Shown: positions 52,686-53,761 of the stretch, in pieces | How positions within the stretch are numbered: the first letter of the stretch is position 1 | Layout: every line of letters starts with the position of its first letter | Source of the DNA: a virus | Taxonomy: Duplodnaviria > Caudoviricetes | IMG/VR virus record: IMGVR_UViG_3300046786_000304 | Coordinates: 64,001-128,000 of that record | DNA length: 64,000 bases | Direction: 5' to 3' (one strand) | Made by a program: the position numbers and the translations under genes | Notes under the pieces: model-generated | Databases searched by the model: none | What the model saw: the letters and a program-made list of their open reading frames with translations, nothing else | Told to the model about the DNA's origin: nothing

Positions 52686-52919
52686 TTAAAATCTTTCTTG
52701 TGTTAATGTCTGTGTTGGCTTAATGCCTTTATCTATACTGATTTTCTCTTTCAGTACTTTAAGGAATATTCGCTTCTCTTCATGGGTTAAATTCCACATT
52801 TGTTCATAACTCTGTCCTGAGTATATGGCCAACGTTGCAACATCTTCTATAAGGGCTTTTGACTCTTTGTCTAAGTTATCTAATAACTTAAGAACTTCAG
52901 GGCCTGACTTTGCTGTCAA
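52686..52919 (-). CDS. gp51-like baseplate assembly segment, probably the -1 frameshift extension of the gp26-like gene
   Basis: No ATG for the first 40 codons; lies in the -1 frame of the upstream gene and is open back through the slippery site. Confidence 0.6.
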   Translation of the reverse strand: MTAKSGPEVLKLLDNLDKESKALIEDVATLAIYSGQSYEQMWNLTHEEKRIFLKVLKEKISIDKGIKPTQTLTQERF

Positions 52920-52924
52920 AAGCC

Positions 52925-53761
52925 TTATGCGAAAAAAGTTGTTGGATTTAAATCTATACTAGATTCATAGTCAGTGCTACAGTTTTGACATTTAATATCA
53001 AATGTCTTTTTCATACCTTTTTGTGCCAATGACATAATACCATTTTCAATCTTCTTAAATTCTGGTTGGCTTATTTGTTCTACCCACTCTTTAATATTAG
53101 TCGAGTCAGTGACAGTCACTCCGTCTGGTAATAATACAGTATCGATACAAGCACCAATGATTAATAAATTTTGATTAGTTAAAGTGTTATAACTTTTTTG
53201 TAAAAGATTAACTTTTTCTTTTTCATCCATGTTACCTTGTTCGGCTAGTTGTATATTTCTAACTTGTTCGTATTGTACCCAGTTTAAGTTTAACAACTGT
53301 TTTACGTTGACTGGTTTGATAAAAACTTTAATTCCGTCGTCCATGATAATTGGATCAAATTTATCTATAGTGGTAATGCTGGCTATAAAATGATTTAAAT
53401 TTAACACGGATTCATTTTTTGTACTACAGCTAGGACATTGTGTTTCGATGTCCAAATCTTCGCCATATGTACAACGTCTGATGGCCAGCAATACTGCATC
53501 TAAGTCAATAGCAGGCATTGTATCTACACTAGTAATACTAGGTACACAGCTATTAAGTAATTGTGTAATAGCAGTACCATTTAATAGTGCATCTGCGTTT
53601 TTCATCAACAACTCATCTTTGGCTGTCATCGGATAAACAGCAATCTCTCCCATGTCATTGAAGTCATTGGGCTTAGTGTCATAGTATTGGCCTTGACTGG
53701 GTAGCTTGATCCATATTCCAGGCTTTCTAAAATATGATTTTAGTGGATTGTTTTCTGACAT
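52925..53761 (-). CDS. gp26: Baseplate hub assembly protein, T4 gp26-like
   Basis: NPLKSYFRKP..LPS; YPMTAKDELL; DLDAVLLAIR; CPSC and CQNC motifs; C-terminal TFF. Confidence 0.8.
   Translation of the reverse strand: MSENNPLKSYFRKPGIWIKLPSQGQYYDTKPNDFNDMGEIAVYPMTAKDELLMKNADALLNGTAITQLLNSCVPSITSVDTMPAIDLDAVLLAIRRCTYGEDLDIETQCPSCSTKNESVLNLNHFIASITTIDKFDPIIMDDGIKVFIKPVNVKQLLNLNWVQYEQVRNIQLAEQGNMDEKEKVNLLQKSYNTLTNQNLLIIGACIDTVLLPDGVTVTDSTNIKEWVEQISQPEFKKIENGIMSLAQKGMKKTFDIKCQNCSTDYESSIDLNPTTFFA
52931..52937 (-). other. Candidate -1 programmed ribosomal frameshift heptamer U UUU UUC
   Basis: ACT TTT TTC GCA TAA, in frame, immediately before the stop of the gp26-like gene. Confidence 0.65.

What the first reader, a model, noticed from the sequence alone, without database searches (positions are those of the whole stretch)
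52686..52945. Programmed -1 frameshift joining gp26-like and gp51-like ORFs (G/GT-style chaperone in a T4-like phage)
The gp26-like gene ends ACT TTT TTC GCA TAA, containing the canonical slippery heptamer U UUU UUC in the correct phase. The -1 frame is open (..TTFFRIRLLTAKSGPEV..) into the downstream ORF, which has no ATG for 40 codons. Established: tail assembly chaperones next to tape-measure genes use -1 frameshifts (lambda G/GT), whereas T4 genes 26 and 51 are described as separate. Here the pair flanks the tape-measure gene divergently. Caveat: an AAGG lies just before the TTG, so independent initiation is possible.
Basis: partly seen in the sequence, partly recalled or inferred. Interest (0 to 1): 0.75.

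Follow-up and report, generated by a model that had tools for sequence, protein, structure and literature searches.

The report
Frameshift makes two hub-chaperone forms
One tail-baseplate assembly gene of this uncultured freshwater T4-like phage very probably yields a short and a long protein, because some ribosomes slip back one base on a conserved UUUUUUC; phage T4 makes the same pair from two separate genes (26 and 51), and I found no paper or database record that reports the slip.

Summary
On the minus strand a gp26-like gene (PF12322, 278 aa) ends ACT TTT TTC GCA TAA, and the -1 frame stays open for 81 more codons.

A heptamer alone means little: the window's gene has six in phase. This one, however, is kept in all 107 related loci and all 73 lineages under about 85% identity (T TTT TTC, T TTT TTT or A AAT TTT). 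The codon before it always ends in the matching base.

The -1 ORF has no conserved start codon. Its first residues (R-x-R-L-L) are conserved, while the 0-frame tails vary.

The long form exists elsewhere as an ordinary in-frame protein: T4 gp51, and a clade with tandem short and long genes. The window's genome record holds only one PF12322 gene.

Best reading: programmed -1 ribosomal frameshifting gives a 278-aa and a 358-aa hub-assembly chaperone (confidence about 0.85).

Weak points:
- The window's downstream hairpin is no better than chance.
- TTG initiation cannot be excluded.
- No tail-assembly-chaperone fold was detected.
- There are no protein data.

This scan already reported the same device in at least 84 other genomes. 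I found no published report.

The parts
52925..53761 (-). Gene A: gp26-like baseplate-hub assembly protein, short form (278 aa), with two CxxC pairs; stop TAA at 52927-52925
   Evidence: PF12322 T4_baseplate 80.2 bits against a cut-off of 24.5. phrog_150 baseplate hub, E 4.6e-27. AlphaFold2 model pLDDT 91.4. It is the only PF12322 gene in the 233-kb genome record.
52931..52937 (-). Slippery heptamer T TTT TTC in X XXY YYZ phase (codons ACT TTT TTC)
   Evidence: Read directly. Kept in 107 of 107 related loci as T TTT TTC (92), T TTT TTT (7) or A AAT TTT (8). The only conserved in-phase heptamer of the gene.
52686..52931 (-). -1 frame extension: 81 codons (RIRLLTAKSGPEV...QERF) plus stop 52688-52686. 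Predicted fusion = gene A residues 1-277 plus these 81 residues = 358 aa.
   Evidence: Open frame. Homologous 62-94 aa extension in 103 of 107 loci. Positions 1, 3, 4, 5 and 7 are conserved while the 0-frame tails vary. AlphaFold2 gives a four-helix model, pLDDT 85.8. Profile match to the T4/cyanophage gp51 C-terminus, E 2e-4.
52917..52926 (-). Candidate independent start: AAGG (52926-52923), 3-nt spacer, TTG (52919-52917)
   Evidence: Read directly. Gene callers use this TTG and give 77-aa products. The spacing is short for a Shine-Dalgarno site (my knowledge). The TTG is absent in other clades.
52901..52924 (-). Possible stimulatory hairpin, starting 6 nt after the heptamer (GGCT..TGAC / GTCA GGCC)
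   Evidence: MFE -8.8 kcal/mol but z-score -0.06 against shuffles. In the clade 82% of cells pair, with no compensatory change. A sister clade has a hairpin at the same place with 6 covarying pairs, and 0 of 500 shuffles reach its score.
53822..56095 (+). Divergently transcribed 757-aa probable tape-measure/hub protein, followed by portal gp20 (56130-57857)
   Evidence: No Pfam hit. No BLASTP likeness to T4 gp29. Its ESM Atlas feature neighbours are tape-measure clusters, score 0.93, which is only a lead. The same synteny is seen in PA5oct, RaK2 and 121Q, where it is annotated as a structural or TMP-like protein.

Best explanation
This is programmed -1 ribosomal frameshifting at the 3' end of the single gp26/gp51-family gene.

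Most ribosomes read ACU UUU UUC GCA and stop at UAA, giving a 278-aa short form that is the counterpart of T4 gp26. A fraction, with tRNA-Phe in both the P and A sites on U UUU UUC, slips back one base. Those ribosomes continue with CGC AUA AGG CUU UUG and add an 81-residue helical domain, giving a 358-aa long form that is the counterpart of T4 gp51.

Both forms would act as non-structural or transient chaperones in assembling the central baseplate hub around the neighbouring tape-measure-like protein.

Shown:
- the signal and its conservation;
- coding constraint in the -1 frame from the slip site onward;
- the long architecture existing as ordinary in-frame proteins in relatives.

Inferred:
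- that slippage happens, and how efficiently;
- that it is ribosomal rather than transcriptional;
- the chaperone function, which is taken from T4 genetics (Leiman et al. 2010, PMC3004832).
For: 1. The heptamer is in phase in 107 of 107 loci. These include isolates Atu_ph07, PA5oct, Phosso, RsoM2USA, XacN1, 121Q, RaK2, CBB, Serratia BF, SCTP-2, a Vibrio phage and cyanophages, at 21-94% protein identity. The preceding codon always ends in T although it encodes 10 different amino acids. The joint codon-usage probability is about 1e-31.

2. Eight loci carry a different heptamer, A AAT TTT, that still obeys X XXY YYZ.

3. Start codons in the -1 ORF, across 70 lineages:
- 32 have no ATG, GTG or TTG in the first 10 codons.
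- 16 have none in the first 20 codons.
- Only 4 have an ATG with a Shine-Dalgarno-like motif.
- Ext positions 1, 3, 4, 5 and 7 are nevertheless conserved (R, R/K, L/I, L/I, L), while the 0-frame tails vary from 1 to 11 residues.

4. T4 gp51 consists of a PF12322 domain (residues 1-201) plus a C-terminal module that matches the cyanophage small ORF (E 2e-5). T4 gp26 is PF12322 alone. Its FF is encoded TTC TTT, and gene 25 follows directly.

5. An exhaustive profile search with the extension found 715 proteins. About 18 of the best 150 are 319-351-aa in-frame fusions with the junction ..F-R-x-K-L-I... They have one F, not two, so they are not homopolymer sequencing errors. Seven loci show them as the second gene of a tandem short-plus-long PF12322 pair.

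6. The window's genome record has only one PF12322 gene.

7. A sister clade has a hairpin 3 nt after the heptamer with 6 covarying pairs.

8. DNA contigs of two runs, and one contig from an RNA library, cross the T-run without an indel, so the frame break is not an assembly error.
Against: There are no protein, ribosome-profiling or reporter data.

- In the window's own clade the downstream hairpin is not better than shuffled sequence (z -0.06) and shows no covariation.
- GGCTTTTG, which contains the AAGG/GAGG-like motif and the TTG, is invariant in the clade. That would also fit a start site.
- In 9 clade members, and in Atu_ph07 and Phosso, the 0-frame TGA overlaps an ATG (ATGA). This would allow termination-reinitiation.
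- Cyanophage small ORFs carry their own ATG. In S-SCSM1 the small ORF is in the +1 frame and the -1 frame is closed. L043 has a stop after 11 ext codons.
- In the tandem two-gene clade, 6 of 8 short paralogues still keep an in-phase T TTT TTN although the -1 frame closes at once. So part of the T-run conservation may come from the N-F-F/L motif, AT-rich codon use, or history.
Confidence: 0.85

Rival explanations
1. Two separate proteins. The small ORF is translated on its own, from TTG 52919 behind AAGG or by termination-reinitiation at the gene A stop. The U-run is kept only because of the conserved FF motif, AT-rich codon usage, or as a U-rich initiation enhancer.
For: AAGG-N3-TTG is present, and GGCTTTTG is invariant in the clade. 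ATGA overlaps occur in some relatives. Cyanophage small ORFs have their own ATG, and in S-SCSM1 the ORF is in the +1 frame. Six of 8 short paralogues of the two-gene clade keep the T-run without any -1 ORF. Gene callers predict a 77-aa product.
Against: No start codon is conserved, and 16 of 70 lineages have none in the first 20 codons. The residues before any possible start (R-x-R-L) are conserved and have counterparts in in-frame fusions and in T4 gp51 (F|KLL). The wobble T before FF is invariant, and the variant A AAT TTT keeps the X XXY YYZ rule. The 3-nt Shine-Dalgarno spacing is poor (my knowledge). Outside the cyanophages, the homologous module is always fused wherever no heptamer-plus-ORF arrangement exists.
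Confidence: 0.08
2. The same fusion protein is made by transcriptional slippage. RNA polymerase adds one extra U in the U6 run, so a subset of mRNAs is in frame.
For: A homopolymer of 6-9 T is present in most loci. One added U gives exactly the same protein..TTFFRIR... Contig data cannot show rare RNA variants.
Against: Runs of 6 are short for efficient polymerase slippage (my knowledge). The A AAT TTT variant shortens the T-run to 5 yet keeps the ribosomal heptamer rule. A covarying hairpin 3-6 nt downstream in a sister clade is the hallmark of ribosomal frameshifting. The one RNA-library contig that crosses the site has no insertion, though this is weak evidence.
Confidence: 0.05
3. No recoding at all. 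The frame break is a sequencing or assembly error in one gene, or the extension is a decaying remnant.
For: Homopolymers are error-prone. L043 and S-SCSM1 have interrupted -1 frames.
Against: The same out-of-frame arrangement occurs in 107 independent assemblies and more than 15 cultured phages. No indel is seen in DNA contigs of two runs. The extension is conserved as protein, with 715 profile hits, and folds confidently.
Confidence: 0.02

Closest known systems
Phage T4 gp26 (208 aa) and gp51 (249 aa), hub assembly chaperones (Pfam PF12322 T4_baseplate; Leiman et al. 2010, PMC3004832)
   Same: Gene A belongs to the same Pfam family. T4 gp26 is the domain alone. T4 gp51 is the domain plus a C-terminal module, joined at the position of the FF motif (..VF|KLLVNPDEI..), which matches the predicted short and long forms here.
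   Different: T4 uses two diverged genes on opposite strands, and gp26 has no slippery site there (TTC TTT). Here one gene with a frameshift would supply both forms. The extension is 81 rather than about 48 residues, and its similarity to gp51 is only moderate (probability 47%, E 2e-4).
Lambda gpG/gpGT and the conserved -1 frameshift of tail assembly chaperone genes in long-tailed phages (Levin et al. 1993; Xu, Hendrix and Duda 2004; also P2 E/E+E') - from my knowledge; the 2004 paper is cited in PMC9024508
   Same: There is a -1 slip on an X XXY YYZ heptamer a few codons before the stop of a tail-morphogenesis gene. It gives a short and a C-terminally extended protein with a shared N-terminus, next to the tape-measure gene. 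Both are needed for assembly and are not major virion parts.
   Different: The protein family is different: PF12322, about 280 aa with two CxxC pairs, rather than the ~120-140-aa tail-assembly-chaperone families. No such Pfam hit or fold match was found. The gene is divergent from the tape-measure-like gene, not directly upstream on the same strand. It works at the hub rather than on the tube. Partners are unknown.
Cyanomyophage 'gp26' plus small 'gp51 baseplate hub assembly catalyst' ORF (e.g. S-SM2, ACG-2014f; phrog_634)
   Same: The same gene pair with the same T TTT TTC. The small ORF is in the -1 frame in S-SM2 and ACG-2014f.
   Different: These are annotated as two independent genes with their own ATG. 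In S-SCSM1 the small ORF is in the +1 frame. The extension is shorter (about 58 aa).
Tandem short + long PF12322 gene pairs in uncultured phages (L110, L113-L118)
   Same: The synteny is the same, divergent from a 640-765-aa protein. The long gene carries the same extension, in frame.
   Different: Two genes and no recoding. In the tree they nest inside the frameshift-type phages, apart from the T4 pair, which points to a separate duplication (support 99/93, rooting not established).

Membership tests
T4 gp26/gp51 family (Pfam PF12322 T4_baseplate) | Whole-protein match to the family profile above the curated cut-off | tested here: met
   Gene A scores 80.2 bits against a cut-off of 24.5, covering residues 20-268. 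It also matches phrog_150, E 4.6e-27.
T4 gp26/gp51 family (Pfam PF12322 T4_baseplate) | Long form carries the gp51-type C-terminal module after the FF position | tested here: inconclusive
   Extension profile against the T4/cyanophage gp51 C-terminal alignment: hhalign probability 47%, E 2e-4, same motif (SY..W.MS..ER). Against T4 gp51 alone, E is 0.03. Position and architecture agree.
T4 gp26/gp51 family (Pfam PF12322 T4_baseplate) | Required for hub assembly, absent or transient in the virion | not testable with these tools
   Known for T4 only (PMC3004832).
Programmed -1 ribosomal frameshift site | X XXY YYZ heptamer in the 0-frame phase, with the -1 frame open beyond the 0-frame stop | tested here: met
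Programmed -1 ribosomal frameshift site | Stimulatory RNA structure 5-9 nt downstream (or an upstream Shine-Dalgarno-like element) | tested here: inconclusive
   The window hairpin is -8.8 kcal/mol with z -0.06. The clade shows 82% pairing but no covariation. A sister clade's hairpin has 6 covarying pairs. No Shine-Dalgarno-like element lies upstream.
Programmed -1 ribosomal frameshift site | Trans-frame protein actually made | not testable with these tools
   No proteomic data. RNA contigs only show that the junction is covered.
Lambda G/GT-type tail assembly chaperones | Membership of a tail-assembly-chaperone sequence family or the chaperone fold | tested here: inconclusive
   No such Pfam, PHROG or NCBIfam hit. 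Foldseek PDB and VIA-align wide searches gave only generic helical-hairpin matches.
Lambda G/GT-type tail assembly chaperones | Pair of overlapping ORFs directly upstream of, and co-directional with, the tape-measure gene | tested here: not met
   The pair is adjacent to the 757-aa tape-measure-like gene but on the opposite strand.
Lambda G/GT-type tail assembly chaperones | Short form binds the tape measure; the extension binds the tube protein | not tested
   No complex prediction was run and the partners are unknown.

The most novel reading that the evidence does not exclude
The gp26/gp51 hub chaperones of the whole T4 superfamily (jumbo Rak2-, PA5oct- and Atu_ph07-like phages, cyanomyophages, many uncultured freshwater phages) are the long-missing functional counterpart of the universal G/GT tail-assembly-chaperone pair. 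The ancestral state would be one gene with a -1 frameshift. It would have been replaced at least twice by gene duplication: once leading to T4 genes 26 and 51, and once in a tandem-gene clade. If so, T4's two 'separate' genes are a resolved frameshift.
Probability: 0.45. Interest if true: 0.8.

Novelty: new variant of a known kind. Interest (0 to 1): 0.7.

Why it matters
Programmed -1 frameshifting in tail assembly chaperones is regarded as nearly universal in long-tailed phages, with T4 as the conspicuous exception. T4 gp26 and gp51 have remained 'essential, function unknown' hub factors.

If the slip is real:
1. Hundreds of phage genomes, including therapy candidates such as PA5oct-, RaK2- and 121Q-like jumbo phages, lack an annotated essential protein. 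None of the 19 GenBank/RefSeq records I opened has a joined CDS there.
2. It gives a direct, testable link between the T4 hub pathway and the G/GT paradigm, including a fixed short-to-long ratio.
3. It offers a natural series for studying why such ratios are set by recoding: a frameshift, tandem genes and dispersed genes all doing the same job.

Tried and rejected
- DNA and protein searches of the phage collection with the junction region and with the small ORF found nothing. Only gene A finds isolates.
- The word-based search for longer proteins carrying the extension found none. The exhaustive profile search was needed.
- A profile made from all 18 diverse gp26/gp51 proteins was too divergent for locus retrieval.
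- RNAalifold on the window clade gave only two trivial 4-bp helices.
- Structure searches of gene A and of the extension against the PDB gave no informative match: Foldseek E > 0.3, and VIA-align Z up to 8.6 only on a generic helical hairpin. No similarity to tail assembly chaperones could therefore be shown or excluded.
- T4 gp29 against the 757-aa neighbour showed no BLASTP similarity.
- Metatranscriptome runs hold only small shares of the stretch, and only as contigs. They cannot show expression level, transcript ends or rare U insertions.
- Eight literature searches combined gp26, gp51, baseplate hub, frameshift, slippery and tail assembly chaperone. The other five returned no paper reporting this slip.
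- The CBB and Atu_ph07 genome papers never mention a frameshift. The library lacks most subscription journals, so absence is not proof.
- No complex prediction was run, because no binding claim is made.

Full report
**What is there**

The finding lies on the minus strand. A 278-aa gene (ATG 53761, stop TAA 52927-52925) ends ACT TTT TTC GCA TAA. The heptamer T TTT TTC (52937-52931) is in X XXY YYZ phase.

The -1 frame is open from 52958 to the stop at 52688-52686. After a slip the reading would be ..NPTTFF|RIRLLTAKSGPEV.. for 81 more codons, giving a 358-aa product. The first in-frame ATG of that frame is ext codon 45. A TTG (52919-52917) lies 3 nt behind an AAGG.

**Context**

- The gene is a member of Pfam PF12322 (T4_baseplate, 80 bits) and phrog_150.
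- The window carries T4-type core genes: gp55, gp47, gp46, and portal gp20 at 56130-57857.
- A 757-aa protein is transcribed divergently from 53822. It has no family hit and no BLASTP likeness to T4 gp29.
- Its language-model neighbours are tape-measure clusters, which is only a lead. In RaK2, PA5oct and 121Q the syntenic gene is annotated as a structural or tape-measure-like protein.
- The window belongs to a 233-kb viral contig (about 65% complete) from fresh water.

**Is the heptamer more than chance?**

Alone, no. In-phase slippery heptamers occur 2.8 times per gene in this AT-rich family and six times in the window's gene.

Its conservation is what counts. I collected 107 loci:
- the window;
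- 90 IMG/VR contigs;
- 16 cultured phages, from Atu_ph07 and PA5oct to Rak2-like jumbo phages and cyanomyophages.

All 107 carry an in-phase heptamer at the C-terminal N-x-F-F motif: 92 T TTT TTC, 7 T TTT TTT and 8 A AAT TTT.

Across 73 lineages under about 85% identity, this is the only conserved heptamer column (69 plus 4 variants; the next best column has 9). The codon before FF always ends in T, although it encodes ten different amino acids. From the genes' own codon usage the chance is 0.36 per lineage, about 1e-31 jointly if lineages are treated as independent, which overstates it.

**Is the -1 frame translated from the slip site?**

In 103 of 107 loci the -1 frame stays open for 62-94 codons. 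Two loci are cut by contig ends, and L043 and cyanophage S-SCSM1 are interrupted.

There is no conserved start. Of 70 lineages:
- 32 have no ATG, GTG or TTG in the first ten codons;
- 16 have none in the first twenty;
- 4 have an ATG with a Shine-Dalgarno-like motif.

Yet the first residues are conserved as protein (R, x, R/K, L/I, L/I, x, L), even where the codons differ (AGG CTT TTG against AAG ATC TTA). The 0-frame tails after the heptamer vary from 1 to 11 residues. The extension folds as a confident four-helix domain, with pLDDT 85.8.

**The long form exists as an ordinary protein elsewhere**

T4 gp26 is PF12322 alone. T4 gp51 is PF12322 (residues 1-201) plus a C-terminal module that matches the cyanophage small 'gp51' ORF (E 2e-5). 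It aligns without gaps from the F of the FF position onward (..VF|KLLVNPDEI..). T4 gp26 encodes its FF as TTC TTT, and gene 25 follows directly.

The extension profile matches the T4/cyanophage module moderately (probability 47%, E 2e-4).

An exhaustive HMM search with the extension profile found 715 proteins. About 18 of the top 150 are 319-351-aa in-frame fusions of a gp26-like domain with the extension. Their junction is ..F-R-x-K-L-I.., with one F, so they are not T-run sequencing errors.

In seven contigs these are the second gene of a tandem short-plus-long PF12322 pair, divergent from a 640-765-aa protein, which is the same synteny as here.

A maximum-likelihood tree gives two groupings:
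- T4 gp26 pairs with gp51 next to the cyanophage gp26 (support 96/86; long branches, so caution is needed).
- The tandem pair nests inside the frameshift-type jumbo phages (99/93).
This suggests two separate duplications. The root is not established.

The window's own genome record has a single PF12322 gene, so a long form can only arise there by recoding.

**Stimulatory signals**

In the window a hairpin (52924-52901) begins 6 nt after the heptamer. Its energy (-8.8 kcal/mol) equals that of shuffled sequence (z -0.06). In its clade 82% of cells pair, with no compensatory change.

A sister clade has an 11-bp hairpin 3 nt after the heptamer with six covarying pairs, and 0 of 500 shuffles reach its score. 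The 0-frame stop lies one codon after the site. There is no upstream Shine-Dalgarno-like element.

**Caveats**

- Independent initiation is not excluded in this clade. GGCTTTTG is invariant, although that segment is also the 5' arm of the hairpin.
- Relatives with a TGA stop have an ATGA overlap. Relatives with TAA, including the window, read ATA or CTA at that place, so the ATG is not conserved.
- Cyanophage small ORFs have their own ATG, and in S-SCSM1 the ORF is in the +1 frame.
- In the tandem-gene clade, 6 of 8 short paralogues keep an in-phase T TTT TTN although the -1 frame closes at once. The T-run is therefore partly explained by the N-F-F/L motif, codon bias or history.
- Transcriptional slippage (one added U) would give the same protein and cannot be excluded with contig data. 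The phase rule, the A AAT TTT variant and the covarying hairpin favour the ribosome.
- No tail-assembly-chaperone family or fold was detected. 'G/GT-like' therefore describes strategy and position, not membership.

**Known or new**

- None of the 19 GenBank/RefSeq records I opened annotates a joined CDS. The small ORF is unannotated, 'hypothetical', or 'gp51'.
- Protein databases hold it as a 77- or 80-aa hypothetical protein.
- Literature searches found no report, and the CBB and Atu_ph07 genome papers do not mention a frameshift. The library omits most subscription journals.
- This scan has already reported the same device in at least 84 other genomes, with the same reading. I re-derived each point independently here. 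I also added the start-codon census, the heptamer-column control, the tandem-clade control with its caveat, and the tree.

**Verdict**

- The function is inferred from T4 genetics (PMC3004832).
- It is a new variant of a known kind. Interest is 0.7.

Noticed in passing
window 52210-52353 (+); also L001 4409-4552, L002 4416-4559, L003 4409-4552, L004 2155-2301, L006 4425-4569, L031 2914-3055, L044 2922-3065: A full-length match to the Rfam orphan sRNA motif Polynucleobacter-1 (RF01718, 51 bits; gathering score 37). It sits between the convergent SegE-like gene and the gp26-extension operon. It is syntenic in seven related phage contigs (38-77 bits), so at least here this 'bacterial' motif is phage-borne. 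It may hint at a Polynucleobacter host.
   Followed up: partly
window 51748-52176 (+): SegE-type GIY-YIG homing endonuclease gene (PF19835, E 2.8e-33), the last gene of the + strand cluster gp55-gp47-gp46-Hc1. A SegE-like gene also lies near the tandem pair in L115.
   Followed up: no
window 51542-51751 (+): A 69-aa ORF matching the chlamydial histone H1-like protein Hc1 (PF07432, E 6e-10), located between gp46 and the homing endonuclease. This is an unusual DNA-binding protein for a T4-like phage.
   Followed up: no
window 52454-52684 (-): A 76-aa TTG-started ORF directly after the extension ORF, with no family hit. In close relatives (L001, L003) the corresponding stretch is broken by stops in the frames I read, so it may not be a gene.
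   Followed up: no
L110, L113, L114, L116, L117, L118 (3' ends of the short PF12322 paralogues): In the clade that has separate short and long genes, six of eight short genes still end with an in-phase T TTT TTC, TTA or TTT, although the -1 frame stops within one or two codons. This is either a relic of the frameshift site or a sign that the U-run has a second role.
   Followed up: partly
L025 (Synechococcus phage S-SCSM1) 2181-2380; L043 2313-2388: Two exceptions to the rule. S-SCSM1 keeps T TTT TTC, but its small 'gp51' ORF is in the +1 frame with its own ATG. L043 has a stop after 11 extension codons.
   Followed up: no
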